Shown one piece after another: positions 46,463-53,334 of a DNA stretch of 64,000 bases (positions are counted from its first letter, which is position 1; each line of letters opens with the position of its first letter). The translations under genes and the position numbers were made by a program. Origin of the DNA: the human T2T-CHM13v2.0 reference genome, Homo sapiens. The notes beneath the pieces were generated by a model. The model was not told the DNA's origin. It worked only from the letters and a program-made list of their open reading frames with translations, and ran no database searches. Location: the NCBI RefSeq assembly GCF_009914755.1, contig NC_060930.1; one strand, given 5' to 3'.

Positions 46463-48407
46463 CAAAACACAAATTATTATAACTTCCCTGAATCATAATT
46501 TGGGAATAAGCTTCTATGAACAATTTACCCTTCAGTTTTGGCTTTAGAAGTGAAACTTTAATAACAATTTTTCTCAACAAATTCCACTTACTTTTCATAA
46601 AGCCAAGGCTCCTACTAGTCAAGCCAGGCTCCTTGACAGTCCCTTGCTCATTTGCTAGGTATCTTTTCACATACACATATTTTAGTATTCTCATATTAAA
46701 GAATAATCTTTAGTCCCTTCAAGTCCCTAACAAAGAACAGAACATGAGGTGAGCAATAAATATCTTTTGATTATATGATTGATTTTTATGTATGTGTATT
46801 AGTTTCATTTCAGGTTATTAAAAGAACATATGGAAATATTCCTACATACTAAGGGGATATCACCAGAGTACCTCAGAATCTCACTTCAGAGACAAAATAC
46901 AGGGCTAGCTTAACCAGTTATTTGGGCCAATGAAGAATTTTTATTCTCTTATTTTGCAGTGACAAAGAAAGAGATAGGAGCTTATGAGAAAGAACTGAAC
47001 AGGTGGGAATACTTGGAGCAGAGCCCTTGTGATGAGCGCCTCCCACATCAAGCCTGAGGAGAACAGACACCAGAGTCCTGCTCATCAGTGGCTCTTAACA
47101 GACTCATGAATATCAAGCCCACCTAGAAAATTACTTGGTTCTCTTTCACATGTATATGCTACACTTTACAAGATATTAAACTGGAACTATGCCCTCACCT
47201 TCAACTGACAGCCCAAGACAATAGGCACCAACTAATCTCGCTTTCCTCAGTGGAGTCTTAGACCACATAAGCACGTCTAGCAGAGGTGGGTGAGGAATTG
47301 GGGAGTCACCTCAAGCTCAGTGAATGAGGCCTGGTATAGAGTTCACCATTTGAGTGGAGAGGTCTACATTTTAACATAAAGAAAGGCAGAGAATGGTACC
47401 ATCTTAGAGACTTTGCCTAAGAGGGCTTTTAGAAGAGTGGTAGAATTCTAACCAAAGGGTAACAGTGGAGTCATAAAGGGTCAGCCAGAGGAGTTGCATT
47501 TGCCTGTGTCATTGCAGCTGCCAGGTCATAGATCCCCAGTACTAGAAAGTCTCTAAAGGGCCGGTGAATGCACCCACAAGAAAGCCATCTTTAAGCATGT
47601 GCAAATATCTACAACCATTTTGATGGCAGCAGAGTTAAACATGCCCTCTCTTCCTCTGCTCTAACTCTAGAAGGGTCAGAAGTTGAGGCTAACTAATGCA
47701 TGGATGGGATGGGATGGAGGTAGGAGGTAGAAGACTTGACTGAGGAAAGAAAATAAATGTACCATGCCCTTCTTCTGATGGAAATCCAAGCAAAGCAAGG
47801 AAGTAACTTCAGTGTTGAATGCAATTCAGAGTTTTGATTATTACACTTGACTGGAGGTATTAACAATGGAACTGCAACTGTTTTAAGGGACTAAAGAGAT
47901 CCCCTGCTTTTCACTGTGTAAGAGCGAGCACATAAACAATGAGGCTTGCCTGAAATTTCATCTAATATAAGGAGAAAAAATGATCCCCATTGAGTGACTT
48001 TACAGGGGCAGTTATTTAAAAATATAAGTTGCGTTGTAAGTGTTCCTGACGTGTCTCTTTTAAGCATATAACAGCACAGGAACGAGGGCTAAAAACAATA
48101 GCATATTACTATGAGTTCAAATTCTTAATAGCGGCGAAGAGTTGCAGCAGAAGAAGGAAAAACTAAAAGAAGACAGCTTATCTCCTACCTACTGAAACGG
48201 GAAAGGCTCCCCTGTCATCCCGCAGGGCGTGCGAGAGTGGACGAGGGAACCTTTCCTGTTTCAACCGGGGCCTCGCCCCGGCATCCTGGAAGGTGAGTGT
48301 GAATGAATGTGAATCTGTTGGGTCCACCTCCCTTCCAAAACCCTGCCACTTCTCTCTCTTTCCTGTGGTTAACAGGCTCTGTTTCCCTTCAAAACTCTGC
48401 CCTAACT

Positions 48408-48717
48408 GGTCCGGGCGCGGTGGCTCACGCCTGTAATCCCAGCACTTTGGGGGGCCAAGGCGGGCGGATCACGAGGTCAGGAGATCGAGACCATCCTGGC
48501 TAACACGGTGAAACCCCGTCTCTACTGAAAATACAAAAAATTAGGCGGGCGTGGTGGCGGGCGCCTGTAGTCCCAGCTACTCGGGAGGCTGAGGCAGGAG
48601 AATGGCGTGAACCCGGGAGGCGGAGCTTGCAGTGAGCCGAGATCGCGCCACTGCACTCCAGCCTGGGCGACAGAGGGAGGCTCCATCTCAAAAAAATAAA
48701 TAAAATAAAATAAAATA
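48408..48717 (+). mobile_element. AluY inserted in the ERV leader
   Basis: Y diagnostics gagaccatcctggctaacacgg and gaatggcgtgaaccc; CpG-rich; TSD aaa(c/t)tctgccctaact. Confidence 0.96.
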
Positions 48718-49639
48718 AAAATTCTGCCCTAACTGGCAAGTCAAAACCCCCAGACTTTGTCTCTTTTCTTTCACATGGTTTTAAATGGCTCTTATCTCTT
48801 TCTTTACAATGTTTTGCTACAGGGTACAGCAATGTTACTAAGTAAAGTGAGCACTTGGCTCAGCTGCCAAAGGTGCAAATCAGACCAACTGTTCCTAGAA
48901 GTGCCATGTATGCCACTACCGTGACAGCTGCAGGAACGCATGGCTTAGGACACCTCTCCTTATCCTTTCCCACAGGTGCCTAGCCGTGCCCACAGCAGGC
49001 AAAGGCCGAGCCCAACAGCTATGAGCGGGGCGGGAGAAAGCGGAGATGGTAGCCATGACCCTACAGGGTGCTTCTAGCCTGCCAAGCCGATGGAACCTTT
49101 TCTCTCCTGGCCATGGAATTCAACCCGGTTTGGGGAAAAGATATAGAGATTAGGGGCACCCACTTGCACTAAGCAAGGTTTTCTTCCCCCAGAATCTTCC
49201 CCTCTTTCCCTTTAAACTGTTTTTCTCTTTTTTCCTTTTCTAAGTGAAAGGGCCCCCCACCCCGCAACACCCAACTGTGTTTCTGATAGGGAACTTAACA
49301 GAGGAATGACGCCTGCTGGCTGAGAACTTTGACGGGACACATTTGAGACACTCCAAACAGATACAAACAGCCTCTAAAATGCCTTTTCAATACCTAACTC
49401 TATTCCAAGCTTCAGGCAGAGGCCCTAGAAAGAAAAACCAGGTCTTAGTGGGTCCAAAGCCAGGCAACAGGCACAATGTAAACGGGCATGACCAATTCCT
49501 GCCAACTGAACCCTCCACCCCAAAGAAGGAGGCCATGCTTCATGGCATAAACAGGCCCAGAAAACTCAAAGTTTGCCAACAGCAGGAAGAAATGGAGGCA
49601 CAGGTGAGGGTGGTTAATTCCTATTCTCCAGAGTTTCAC

Positions 49640-50665: not shown

Positions 50666-51127
50666 AGATACAGGTATTCCCAGGGTGCACCTGTTAACTG
50701 CTGAAGATATGGCAAGAACTGTTATCTCTCTTCTACAACTTTATCTGCTCCCATGCAAGGTTTAATTTCTTTCACCAGAGTGAAACAGCTCAGGGTACAA
50801 TGTTGTTATTAGTATACTTTACTTCTTGTCTCTGTAATCTTTGGCACTAAATCCTTTCTGTGTATAATACACATGTTTAACCCATGCATACTTAACCTTA
50901 TAAAACTTCTTTTTTTCTCTCACACCTAGAAACCATTAAACTCCAAACAGGCAACCAGAGCCTCAGATGATGGCTTACCTTTGCTAGGAATACTTAGATA
51001 GACCTTTGGGAGGAGTCTGACTGCTGTTTTCCTCCAAAACAATGACCCCTGTCAGCAAGATGCAGCTAAGACCTGTCATCGTCCATATTCTAAAGGCAGT
51101 TAGATGTACTTCTTCAGAAGGGGAAAA

Positions 51128-51955
51128 TGATACGGAAGTGCTGGGAAAGGAAGAACGGTCCCTTTAAATGATACGGAAGTGGGGAAGGGAAGTGCTGGGG
51201 AGAGGAAAGGTGTGGTCCCTGGCTAGGGCTCCACCCTCAGGGAAATAGGTGAGGTCAGGCACTCCTGCCTTCATGCCCAAATGTTGCATTTCCCAAGACC
51301 GCCCTGGCCTGCCATGTCCCCATCCTGTGCCTCTAAAAACCCGAGACCCTAGCAGGGCAGAGACAGAAGCAGCTGGACGTCGAAAGGAGCACATCAGCGG
51401 AGGAACACACAGGTGGCTGGACGTGGAAAGGAAAGCACCAGCACCGGCATGCCAACAGGCCACTGACCGGCAGAACCACATGGAGTTTGGCTGGGGCAGT
51501 TGGAGGAAAGCCTGGCTGCCAGGTGGCCCGACTCCACTGGAAAACCGTCTCCCTTCTGCCTCCCCCATCTGCTGAGAGCTACTTCCACTCATAAAACCTT
51601 GCATTCATTCTCCAAGCCCACATGTGATCCGATTCTTCCGGTACACCAAAGCAAGAAACTCCAGGATACAGAAAACCCTCTATCCTTTAGACAGGGTAGA
51701 GGGTCTAATTGAGCTGACTAACACAAGCCGCCTATAGAAAAAGAAAGGCAAACTGAAAGAGCACCCGGTAACACATGCCCACTGGGGCTTCAGGAGCTGT
51801 AAACGTTCACCCCTAGACATTGCTGTGGGGTGGGAGTCCCACAGCCTGCCCATCTGTATCCTCCCCTAGAGGTCTGAGCAGCAGGGCACTGAAGAAGCGA
51901 GCCACACCGCCATCACATGCCCTGCGAGGGGGACAAAGGAATCTTTCTCATTTCA
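51128..51955 (+). mobile_element. 3' LTR, LTR1B-like (828 bp)
   Basis: tgatacggaagtgctggg..tttca preceded by polypurine tract agaaggggaaaa. Confidence 0.85.
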
Positions 51956-53334
51956 CTACCTCTCTATTTTTGTGTACAAAGATCAGACTAAATGCATACA
52001 TGCTAGCACTTAAGCAAAGAATGCACCGTGCACTAGCCTCACTCTGCTTCATACAGGATGCAAAAACTGACCGCTAAAAGAAATAAACTTCCAAAATCCC
52101 AAAAGAAAGCCATTAACAAAATGTTCATGTATGTAGTCTCGTTAATAAGTTAAATACCCAGTAATACATGGAAACAACATAACACAAAGAAATAGAAAAA
52201 TGTACCTAACACTAGAGGCTTCAACAAAAGAATTTCTTGGGCAGCAAAAGAATGCAGGGGTGGATAAAAACAGAGTGTCAACCATGGGCAAGATTTGGGA
52301 TTCAAATCCATGGTATGTGTCTGTCAAGGAAACAGGAGCTATTTGAATTATGGTGCTATAATTCCGTCAAGGGATGCTGAGGACTGCATAAACCACTTGA
52401 GCCTTCAGAAATTACTACCCCATAGTTCAGTCACTTGTGATTTGTTCTATGAGTAATTTATTGGCCACCTTTGCACAGTATGTTGTGTCAAACCTGAAAC
52501 AGATATTTCTTTGGAATCTGATTTGTCTTTTACCTGAGAATCTGTCCATTTCTGTAACAAATCTTTATTGAGCATTTATTACATGTACCAAGCTGTGAGG
52601 GGAAGTGGATTGTGCAGTTACCTTTGGACCTCCAGCTACTTCAGGCTTTAGGCCCATAAAGCTATTGACACCAGAAAACAGACATTCTATAGCCAGCTAG
52701 AGAGTCCTGCCTGCAGAGTAAATACCCATCAACAAAAAAATTAAACAAATGTTCAATGGGGACACAACCACAAACGTTTTGGAGTGGGGGTTCTCAGAGT
52801 GCTCTATCCTTAAACGTCTATCTAAGCAGTTTTCTAGGACTCCACCCATAGGGAAAAGCTGCTGCACAGTGACTTTGGGAAGCTGCTGTTAAGGAAAAAA
52901 AGGGTGACTTAGCTGATACTAAGACATATACTGCGTACACCCAGTCAGCCCACACCACCTGCCTCCAAGCAGCTAACATGATGCTACTGAGCAAAACCCT
53001 GTCCCTCCCTTTCACTGATGCATTCCATGTTCTCTCTGACCTTTTCAAGACACCTCTTTGCCTCCTTTATCCCTTCCATGTTAATGTTATTTACCTGTAT
53101 AAGATGCTGATGGTGGATAGAGAGTCCTTGACAGTGTGAGTCGTCTCAGGAGGATGAAGATAAACAGAATCTTAAACTTAGAATTCAGGTCATGTGGTCT
53201 GTGGACAACTATTTCTTAGACTTCCAGCTTTCTGAAAGTCTTTTTAACCAATAAAAGACATGTTTCTTCCTTTCTATGCTAACAAGAGGGCACATCTGAA
53301 GGTGTTATGATTTAGAAAAATAAGTTAACCTTCA

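What the first reader, a model, noticed from the sequence alone, without database searches (positions are those of the whole stretch)
48189..51959. Provirus integrated with U5 at both ends: 5' LTR replaced by a fold-back hairpin of the U5 terminus, TSD intact
Seen: there is no normal 5' LTR. Instead, 48193-48234 (tgaaacgggaaaggctcccctgtcatcccgcagggcgtgcga) is a diverged reverse complement of the last ~43 nt of the 3' LTR (51913-51955). It runs directly into a forward copy of the same U5 end (48230-48263, tgcgagagtggacgagggaacctttcctgtttca), followed by a degenerate Pro PBS. The outer 24 nt of the arms pair at 20/24, all four mismatches being transitions. The switch lies at a mini-hairpin cgca-gggcg-tgcg (48221-48233). 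The whole element is flanked by ctac/ctac. Established: gamma-like integrases make 4-bp TSDs at TG..CA att ends; minus-strand synthesis starts at the U5 end; plus strong-stop DNA copies U5 and the tRNA-derived PBS. Inference: a prematurely stopped ~42-nt minus strong-stop DNA snapped back at the mini-hairpin, copied its own U5 and the tRNA primer, and replaced plus strong-stop DNA in second-strand transfer. This gives a cDNA with two U5 att sites that integrase still accepted, i.e. a PPT-independent, self-primed route to integration. If it recurs across LTR1-related families it is a family-level alternative replication pathway. I cannot tell whether it has been described.
Basis: partly seen in the sequence, partly recalled or inferred. 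Interest (0 to 1): 0.85.

Follow-up and report, generated by a model that had tools for sequence, protein, structure and literature searches.

The report
Old provirus with two U5 ends
An ancient gag-only endogenous retrovirus on human chromosome 6 lacks its left LTR and instead begins with a short mirror-image copy of its own right-hand tip, most likely a fossil of a reverse-transcription snap-back error that was still integrated; it is a one-off, not a family habit.

Summary
Window 48193-48263 is a 71-nt imperfect palindrome. It consists of an inverted copy of the last ~43 nt of the LTR (U5 tip) joined to a forward copy of the last ~34 nt, then AC, a Pro-type primer-binding site, leader, gag remnants, a polypurine tract and one complete 828-bp 3' LTR. 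The whole is flanked by ctac/ctac.

The family makes 4-bp duplications: 11 of 14 readable relatives have perfect ones. The join lies at a small inverted repeat (TCGCA-5 nt-TGCGA) native to the family's U5. The 5-nt loop is in the inverted orientation, so the continuous strand is minus-sense DNA that starts at the tRNA-primer boundary and then copies itself.

The best reading (about 0.6) is that a ~45-nt minus-strand DNA snapped back, copied U5 and the tRNA, and stood in for plus strong-stop DNA. Integrase then joined two U5 ends.

The main rival (about 0.2) is an early post-integration double template switch that used the same palindrome and the LTR's terminal inverted repeat.

All 24 other proviral 5' junctions are normal, and five genome-wide pattern searches find no second case in this family. 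"PPT-independent" is neither needed nor testable.

The parts
48189..48192 (.). left copy of the 4-bp target-site duplication (ctac)
   Evidence: identical to 51956-51959; the family makes 4-bp duplications
48193..48234 (-). inverted copy of the last ~43 nt of U5, starting exactly at the U5 terminus (TG...) and including the loop and both stem halves of the mini-palindrome
   Evidence: the reverse complement aligns to the 3' LTR tip (32 of 43 columns) and to the U5 tips of 35 relatives
48221..48233 (.). switch point: mini-hairpin CGCA-GGGCG-TGCG; the loop is in the inverted (minus-sense) orientation
   Evidence: relatives carry TCGCA-N5-TGCGA here (5 of 52 strictly, 25 of 52 if CpG decay is allowed)
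48230..48263 (+). forward copy of the last ~34 nt of U5, ending ...TTTCA
   Evidence: collinear with the U5 tips of 24 relatives
48264..48284 (+). AC dinucleotide (48264-48265) and a Pro-type primer-binding site variant (48266-48284)
   Evidence: same position and same AC spacer in relatives; the variant is shared with L002, L008, L041, L051 and L053
48285..51115 (+). internal region: leader and gag remnants, no pol or env; collinear with relatives of ~4.6 kb. It contains a later Alu insertion (48410-48717, direct repeats 48391-48409 and 48718-48736). It lacks ~290-365 bp that four relatives have between 49661 and 49673.
50053..50701 (+). three open fragments, each matching Gag_p30 weakly but in collinear order
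   Evidence: E 0.012-0.017, 15-16 bits (gathering 27.4), profile positions 9-60, 112-143 and 164-199; MLV capsid 1u7k at E 0.022
51116..51127 (+). polypurine tract (AGAAGGGGAAAA) abutting the 3' LTR
   Evidence: LTR start fixed at 51128 by alignment to relatives
51128..51955 (+). complete 3' LTR, 828 bp, TG...CA; the degenerate poly(A) signal lies about 365 nt before its end
51956..51959 (.). right copy of the 4-bp target-site duplication (ctac)

Best explanation
This is a molecular fossil of an aberrant reverse-transcription product that was nevertheless integrated by the viral integrase. Shown: the element is a member of an old, gag-only, Pro-PBS, 4-bp-duplication ERV family. Its left end is [inverted U5 tip, ~43 nt][forward U5 tip, ~34 nt][AC][PBS]. 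Both outer termini are U5 termini and abut a direct ctac duplication. Inferred: tRNA-primed minus-strand DNA synthesis stopped after about 45 nt of a U5 that is about 330 nt long, just past a native 5-bp inverted repeat. The 3' TGCGA folded back on TCGCA. Reverse transcriptase extended it over its own U5 and over the 3' 18 nt of the tRNA, giving a hairpin with a plus-sense PBS at its 3' end. After removal of the tRNA, this molecule took the place of plus strong-stop DNA in the second strand transfer onto a full-length minus strand made from the co-packaged RNA. Copying through the hairpin gave a linear DNA with a genuine U5 attachment site at each end. Integrase processed both ends (removing the two bases beyond CA) and joined them in concert, which made the 4-bp duplication. 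An intermolecular variant gives the same product: a growing minus strand switches at the same pentamer onto a second minus strong-stop DNA. The event was a one-off accident, not a replication strategy.
For: (1) The structure and coordinates are verified and highly non-random. (2) The inverted arm begins exactly at the U5 terminus, which is the tRNA-primer boundary less the two processed bases. Nothing of the PBS or of further LTR lies to its left. (3) The duplication ctac/ctac is direct, not inverted. Relatives have perfect 4-bp duplications in 11 of 14 elements with both ends aligned, 3 of 4 bases in 2, and 1 is unreadable; L059 adds catg/catg. (4) The switch is at a palindrome native to the family U5. 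That palindrome is predicted to form at the 3' end of the 43-nt minus-strand DNA of the window copy and of L022. (5) The loop GGGCG matches the family loop only in the inverted orientation: 5 of 5, against 2 of 5 forward. So the continuous strand is minus-sense from the terminus through the loop and then copies itself. A snap-back of a broken end of a resident 5' LTR would leave the loop forward. (6) The three U5 tips differ pairwise by 7-8, 9 and 8-9 of ~34 columns, a star pattern with about 4 private changes each. This is the same range as 5'/3' LTR tips of four relatives, which differ at 5-10 of 45 columns. So the palindrome is about as old as the integration. (7) U5 is long: AATAAA lies 350-377 nt before the LTR end in 12 of 14 relatives, so the stop was premature. 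(8) Snap-back self-priming of minus strong-stop DNA by RT is established in vitro (passages of PMC6088434 section 5.1; PMC4668388; PMC3141651). (9) Gammaretroviral integrase performs concerted integration in vitro with two copies of one oligonucleotide viral end (passages of PMC4422553). That such substrates are usually U5 ends is recalled, not read.
Against: This is a single locus with no second example, so nothing shows the route is reproducible. The reviews read call self-primed products dead-end or 'suicidal' and say they were not detected in endogenous HIV-1 reactions. The mini-hairpin alone is weak: about -3.5 kcal/mol, with z from 0.05 to -1.2 against shuffles for the 42-43-nt strands. 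The model needs several rare steps in a row and two primed RNAs. One G-run position may carry a T shared by both arms but not by the 3' LTR. That fits an RT error made before the snap-back, but equally a short shared history after integration. No outgroup genome could be examined. A 4-bp match by chance is 1 in 256. The main rival also preserves the duplication, so the duplication does not separate the two readings.
Confidence: 0.62

Rival explanations
1. Post-integration double template switch during chromosomal DNA replication or repair. A normal provirus integrated with ctac/ctac. Later a nascent strand copying leftwards through U5 switched at TCGCA/TGCGA onto the opposite strand and copied the U5 tip in inverted sense. 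It then returned to the original template at the left edge of the 5' LTR. The LTR's own terminal inverted repeat (U3 start TGATAC against the reverse complement of the U5 end, TGAAAC; 5 of 6 bases) offers microhomology there. Net result: about 795 bp of LTR replaced by about 38 nt of inverted U5, with the duplication untouched.
For: Both switch points have microhomology: a 5-nt palindrome, and TGAAAC against TGATAC. The duplication would be kept automatically. Short template-switch mutations that create inverted copies are documented in human and ape genomes (PMC5453318 and PMC7954356; search listing and abstracts only). One possibly shared derived base in the two arms would fit a short common history after integration.
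Against: The event must land on exactly two specific sites about 800 bp apart, whereas the described events are short-range (abstracts). The arms have diverged from each other as much as each has from the 3' LTR and as much as LTR pairs of relatives. So the event would have to fall early in the element's residence: roughly the first 40% by my own rough estimate from 1 shared against 8 private changes. RT switches templates far more readily than a replisome (established knowledge, not tested here).
Confidence: 0.22
2. Two independent insertions plus a deletion. An older LTR or provirus of the same family lay in inverted orientation next to this provirus. A deletion between the two U5 regions left 43 nt of one and 34 nt of the other.
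For: The family is large, with 1606 first-look LTR candidates, so nested or adjacent copies do occur. The deletion could have used the palindrome as microhomology.
Against: The left ctac would then belong to a different insertion and would match the right ctac only by chance (1 in 256). No other LTR-like sequence exists in the 64-kb window. The two arms share the same subfamily states where the family is polymorphic, for example the CC in the AACC stretch. The equal three-way divergence would be a coincidence.
Confidence: 0.04
3. One reading: snap-back with U5/U5 integration is a recurrent, family-level, PPT-independent replication pathway of LTR1-related elements.
For: The mini-palindrome is a family feature, so the opportunity existed in every cycle.
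Against: None of the 24 other proviral 5' junctions has an inverted arm. Searches with strict, plain and degenerate arms and gaps of 10-71 nt (30-60 nt for the strict arms) find only this locus or nothing. One degenerate arm alone matches 28 of 35 relatives with 1 mismatch or fewer. A generic TGAAA...TTTCA-NN-Pro-PBS search gave 4 hits, none palindromic by eye, against 1 in the reversed control. Such a product has no U3 or R at its 5' end, so it cannot be transcribed as a genome and cannot propagate.
Confidence: 0.03

Closest known systems
[quoted passage not shown] 1997; Golinelli and Hughes 2001)
   Same: The 3' end of tRNA-primed minus-strand DNA folds on an internal inverted repeat and RT extends it along its own strand. 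This is exactly the arm/loop/arm layout seen at 48193-48263.
   Different: In vitro it occurs at the R (TAR) end of complete strong-stop DNA. The reviews I read call it a dead end and report no such products in endogenous reactions. Here it is about 45 nt into a U5 of about 330 nt, and the product appears to have been rescued into an integrated provirus.
Plus-strand strong-stop DNA and the second (PBS-mediated) strand transfer of normal retroviral replication
   Same: A DNA whose 3' end is a copy of the tRNA's 18 nt anneals to the PBS complement of the minus strand. It then templates the left end of the provirus.
   Different: The 5' part of the surrogate is inverted U5 instead of U3-R-U5, so no 5' LTR is made.
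Copy-back defective viral genomes of RNA viruses
   Same: The polymerase turns back and copies the nascent strand, so a genome end is replaced by the reverse complement of the other or the same end (passages of PMC13506859).
   Different: Those are RNA genomes that replicate as defective interfering particles. This is a DNA product fixed once in a chromosome and unable to propagate.
Short-range template-switch mutations of chromosomal replication (four-point model)
   Same: They create a local inverted copy at short inverted repeats.
   Different: They are usually tens of bases without a deletion of ~800 bp. They have no reason to begin at the tRNA-primer boundary. Only the search listing and abstracts were seen.
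L1 twin-priming inversions
   Same: A second priming event during reverse transcription gives an element whose 5' part is inverted, within intact target-site duplications.
   Different: That is target-primed non-LTR retrotransposition with long duplications and a poly(A) tail. Here there is an LTR element, TG/CA ends and a 4-bp integrase-type duplication.

Membership tests
Class I (gamma-like) endogenous retrovirus | 4-bp target-site duplication | tested here: met
   ctac/ctac in the window. Perfect 4-bp duplications in 11 of 14 relatives with both ends aligned, 3 of 4 bases in 2, and 1 unreadable. L059 has catg/catg.
Class I (gamma-like) endogenous retrovirus | LTR with TG...CA ends and a PBS two bases after U5, complementary to tRNA-Pro | tested here: met
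   The LTR runs TGATAC...TTTCA. An AC spacer and a Pro-type PBS are seen in 24 relatives and, as a variant, in the window. The assignment to tRNA-Pro rests on my recall of the canonical PBS, not on a tool.
Class I (gamma-like) endogenous retrovirus | Gag with a p30-type capsid | tested here: inconclusive
   Three fragments each match PF02093 below the gathering score (E 0.012-0.017, 15-16 bits against 27.4) but in collinear order. At max_evalue 0.01 there were no hits. In the PDB search the top hit was an unrelated GFP-like protein at E 0.0022, and MLV-type capsids came at E 0.02-0.04.
   No repeat library was available. What was shown: an LTR of ~828 bp, 1606 first-look candidates, closest copies 84% identical, and gag-only proviruses of ~4.6 kb.
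Self-primed minus-strand DNA product | The inverted arm starts at the tRNA-primer/U5 boundary | tested here: met
   The arm starts with TGAAAC directly after the duplication. No PBS complement or other LTR sequence lies to its left.
Self-primed minus-strand DNA product | The turn lies at an inverted repeat present in the template, with the loop in minus-sense orientation | tested here: met
   TCGCA-N5-TGCGA is present in relatives: 5 of 52 strictly, 25 of 52 with CpG decay allowed. The window loop GGGCG is the reverse complement of the family loop.
Self-primed minus-strand DNA product | The arms were identical when formed, at the time of integration | tested here: inconclusive
   Star-like three-way divergence of 7-9 differences per ~34 columns, matching LTR-pair tips of relatives. 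The numbers are too small to exclude an early post-integration origin.
Integrase-mediated concerted insertion | Both termini are processed att ends (CA-3') flanked by a direct duplication of the family's length | tested here: met
   The left end is TG..., the right end is ...CA, no extra dinucleotide is retained, and ctac is direct on both sides.
Recurrent family-level pathway | Independent further copies with the same architecture | tested here: not met
   0 of 24 other 5' junctions. Genome-wide patterns find only the own locus or nothing.

The most novel reading that the evidence does not exclude
Self-primed minus-strand DNA, which the reviews I read treat as a suicidal dead end of reverse transcription, can be rescued in vivo. 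It can serve as a surrogate plus strong-stop DNA and yield a provirus with a U5 attachment site at each end, which a gamma-type integrase inserts in concert. This locus would be the first natural record of that route, a retroviral 'copy-back' defective genome fixed in a germ line.
Probability: 0.55. Interest if true: 0.6.

Novelty: new variant of a known kind. Interest (0 to 1): 0.45.

Why it matters
If the reading holds, this locus gives natural, in vivo evidence for two things so far known to me only from test-tube work. The first is that RT snap-back on minus-strand DNA happens inside particles despite nucleocapsid. The second is that an integrase will carry out concerted insertion of a genome-length DNA bearing two U5 ends. 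It also defines a recognisable signature: [inverted U5 tip][U5 tip][PBS] inside an intact duplication. That signature could be searched for in annotated ERVs of many genomes and in integration-site data from vectors, to measure how often this error occurs. It has no bearing on host gene function. The locus is intergenic, and the element lacks a promoter LTR, pol and env.

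Tried and rejected
1. I looked for a paralogous empty site. The 300-nt left flank is unique in the genome, so no pre-insertion copy could be read.

2. I looked for recurrence. Searches found only the own locus or nothing. The plain-letter patterns were insensitive, because one arm alone needs 2-3 mismatches in most relatives. That is why the degenerate versions were run. Snap-backs with arms longer than about 55 nt were not searched for. Only a generic TTTCA-plus-Pro-PBS pattern with a gap of 51-81 was run.

3. The repeat finder with seed 9 or 8 does not report the palindrome, because its longest exact run is 7. 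A script was used instead.

4. Pfam at E 0.01 gave nothing for seven ORF fragments. Weak collinear Gag_p30 hits appeared only at a relaxed threshold.

6. I searched the literature for an integrated U5/U5 or snap-back provirus. The only 'inverted U5' paper in the listing is, by its title, about U6 snRNA pseudogenes; I did not open it. The 'U5-U5' paper concerns RNA long-range interactions. The snap-back paper is a general review of defective genomes. The library lacks most subscription-journal papers of the 1980s and 1990s on aberrant retroviral DNA forms, so absence there is weak evidence.

7. I rejected snap-back repair of a broken resident 5' LTR, because it would leave the loop in forward orientation. 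I rejected inverted duplication of the 3' junction, because the left flank would then read gtag, not ctac. I rejected L1-mediated retrocopy, because there is no poly(A), the 3' LTR runs to its U5 end, and the duplication is 4 bp.

Full report
**What is there.** Reading 47900-52300 confirms every string and coordinate in the finding. From left to right the element runs as follows:
- ctac (48189-48192)
- an inverted copy of the last ~43 nt of the LTR (48193-48234)
- a forward copy of the last ~34 nt (48230-48263), overlapping the first by the pentamer TGCGA
- the dinucleotide AC
- a Pro-type primer-binding site variant (48266-48284)
- leader and gag remnants, interrupted by a later Alu (48410-48717, with its own 19-nt direct repeats)
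- a polypurine tract (51116-51127)
- one complete 828-bp LTR (51128-51955)
- ctac again (51956-51959)

The reverse complement of the left arm aligns to the 3' LTR tip at 32 of 43 columns, and the forward arm at 26 of 34. The outer 24 nt of the arms pair at 20/24 with four transition mismatches. This is the only non-low-complexity palindrome of that quality in the 64-kb window: 6 raw hits, 1 after filtering, and 0 in each of 20 shuffles. As single-stranded DNA the 71-mer folds at -18.9 kcal/mol, z = -4.1. No other LTR-like sequence exists in the window, so the 5' LTR is truly missing rather than displaced.

**The family.** The window's genome could be searched. The 3' LTR has 1606 first-look candidates, of which 40 were scored, and the closest copies are 84% identical.

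Four complete relatives are proviruses of ~4.6 kb. Each has two LTRs of ~830 bp and an internal region of ~3 kb that is collinear with the window element throughout. The one exception is ~290-365 bp that the window lacks between 49661 and 49673. The family is therefore gag-only and must have been mobilised in trans. The missing pol and env are not special to this copy.

Three open fragments match Gag_p30 weakly but in collinear order. Nothing passed at E 0.01, and the PDB search was not significant for capsids.

Relatives have perfect 4-bp duplications in 11 of 14 elements whose two ends could be aligned. Two more have 3 of 4 bases, and one is unreadable. L059 adds catg/catg.

LTR pairs of the four proviruses are 82-87% identical, so the family is old. 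AATAAA lies 350-377 nt before the LTR end in 12 of 14 relatives, which gives a U5 of roughly 330 nt.

**The junction in detail.** All 24 other genomic loci that match the U5-PBS-leader stretch carry ordinary LTR sequence upstream of the forward U5.

Aligned to 35 family U5 tips, the window's switch point coincides with a small inverted repeat, TCGCA-5 nt-TGCGA, holding two CpGs. It survives intact in 5 of 52 relatives, and in 25 of 52 if CpG decay is allowed.

The window's loop, GGGCG, is the reverse complement of the family loop: 5 of 5, against 2 of 5 in the forward sense. This fixes the topology. The strand that is continuous is minus-sense DNA. It runs from the very U5 terminus through stem, loop and stem, and then turns and copies itself as plus-sense U5 into the PBS.

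That is the layout expected of tRNA-primed minus-strand DNA that snapped back after about 45 nt. It is the opposite of what a snap-back of a broken end of a resident 5' LTR would leave.

The left arm stops exactly at the U5 terminus with no PBS complement beyond it. The left flank reads ctac, not gtag, so it is not an inverted copy of the 3' junction.

**Timing.** Over the ~34 columns that all three U5 tips share:
- the two arms differ at 7-8 positions
- the left arm and the 3' LTR differ at 9
- the forward arm and the 3' LTR differ at 8-9

Judged against the family, each copy has about four private changes. At most one state, a T in the G-run, is shared by the arms alone. The same stretch differs at 5-10 of 45 columns between the two LTRs of relatives. 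The palindrome is therefore about as old as the insertion. The numbers are small, and an origin in roughly the first 40% of the element's residence cannot be excluded (my estimate).

**Mechanism.** The best reading (0.62) runs as follows.
1. A short minus-strand DNA folded at the native pentamer pair.
2. RT extended it over its own U5 and the tRNA's 3' end.
3. After tRNA removal, the product annealed by its PBS to a full-length minus strand made from the co-packaged RNA.
4. It thereby replaced plus strong-stop DNA.
5. Copying through the hairpin gave a linear DNA with a true U5 end on each side.
6. Integrase processed and joined both ends, which made the 4-bp duplication.

Only the anatomy is shown; all of these steps are inferred.

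Snap-back self-priming of minus strong-stop DNA is well described in vitro. The reviews I read passages of regard it as a dead end and note that it was not seen in endogenous HIV-1 reactions. Concerted integration with two copies of one viral-end oligonucleotide is routine for gammaretroviral integrase in vitro. That these oligonucleotides are U5 ends is recalled. The nearest analogue in other viruses is the copy-back defective genome.

"PPT-independent" is not needed. The polypurine tract is intact, and the provirus carries no record of whether it was used.

**Rivals.** The serious rival (0.22) is a post-integration double template switch. It would use the same pentamer pair for the outward switch. 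For the return it would use the LTR's own terminal inverted repeat (TGAAAC against TGATAC). This would also preserve the duplication.

It is disfavoured for three reasons. It needs two exact landings about 800 bp apart. The arms diverged early. RT also switches templates much more readily than a replisome, which is established knowledge that I did not test.

Two independent insertions plus a deletion (0.04) would need a chance 4-bp match and is not supported by any extra LTR sequence.

**Recurrence.**
- A strict pattern, a plain pattern with up to 3 mismatches and a degenerate pattern with up to 3 mismatches each find only this locus.
- The plain and degenerate patterns with gaps of 41-71 nt find nothing.
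- The degenerate arm alone matches 28 of 35 relatives with at most one mismatch, so sensitivity was reasonable.
- A generic search for TGAAA...TTTCA-NN-Pro-PBS (gap 51-81) gave four hits, none palindromic by eye, against one in the reversed control.

Such a product lacks U3 and R at its 5' end and could not give rise to progeny in any case.

**Novelty and limits.** Four literature searches found no description of an integrated provirus with U5 at both ends or of a rescued self-primed product. Of the hits with the key terms, two were opened and are unrelated; the third was judged unrelated from its title alone. The searchable library omits much of the older subscription literature on aberrant retroviral DNA, so prior description cannot be ruled out.

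I rate this a new variant of a known kind: a neat but single fossil of a known in vitro side reaction, with a plausible though unproven rescue route.

The decisive test is the orthologous locus and empty site in other primates. It could not be run here. The left flank is unique in the human genome, so no paralogous empty site exists. The LTR1B/HUERS-P2 label could not be checked.

Noticed in passing
window 48391-48736: An Alu (about 48410-48717) sits in the ERV leader. It is flanked by 19-nt direct repeats at 48391-48409 and 48718-48736 (18 of 19 identical), so it is a later, ordinary L1-mediated insertion.
   Followed up: partly
window 49661-49673: The window element lacks about 290-365 bp that four full relatives (L058-L061) carry at this point of the internal region. 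Whether this is a deletion here or a subfamily difference was not resolved.
   Followed up: no
window 62351-62965 (minus strand): A second, unrelated-copy gag-like fragment is ~72% similar to 50015-50186 and 50486-50587 of the element. It lies a few hundred bases from the RefSeq silencer at 63407-63607.
   Followed up: no
window 51125-51181 and 51363-51442: There are direct repeats inside U3. The LTR's first 13 nt with the three preceding A's recur 41 nt downstream (16 of 16). A 36-nt unit recurs at 75% identity 44 nt on. Relatives align from either copy of the first repeat, so it looks like a family feature.
   Followed up: partly
window 48266-48284 and loci L002, L008, L041, L051, L053: A subset of the family shares a PBS variant (GGGGCC...CGCCC instead of GGGGGC...CGTCC). 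It may mark a subfamily or relaxed pairing with the primer tRNA.
   Followed up: no
G000 C8:33963919-33964995 (not fetched): In the LTR search, a minus-strand LTR copy is followed within ~200 bp by a plus-strand fragment of U3 (query 153-262, 74%). This is an inverted arrangement of a different kind from the one studied.
   Followed up: no
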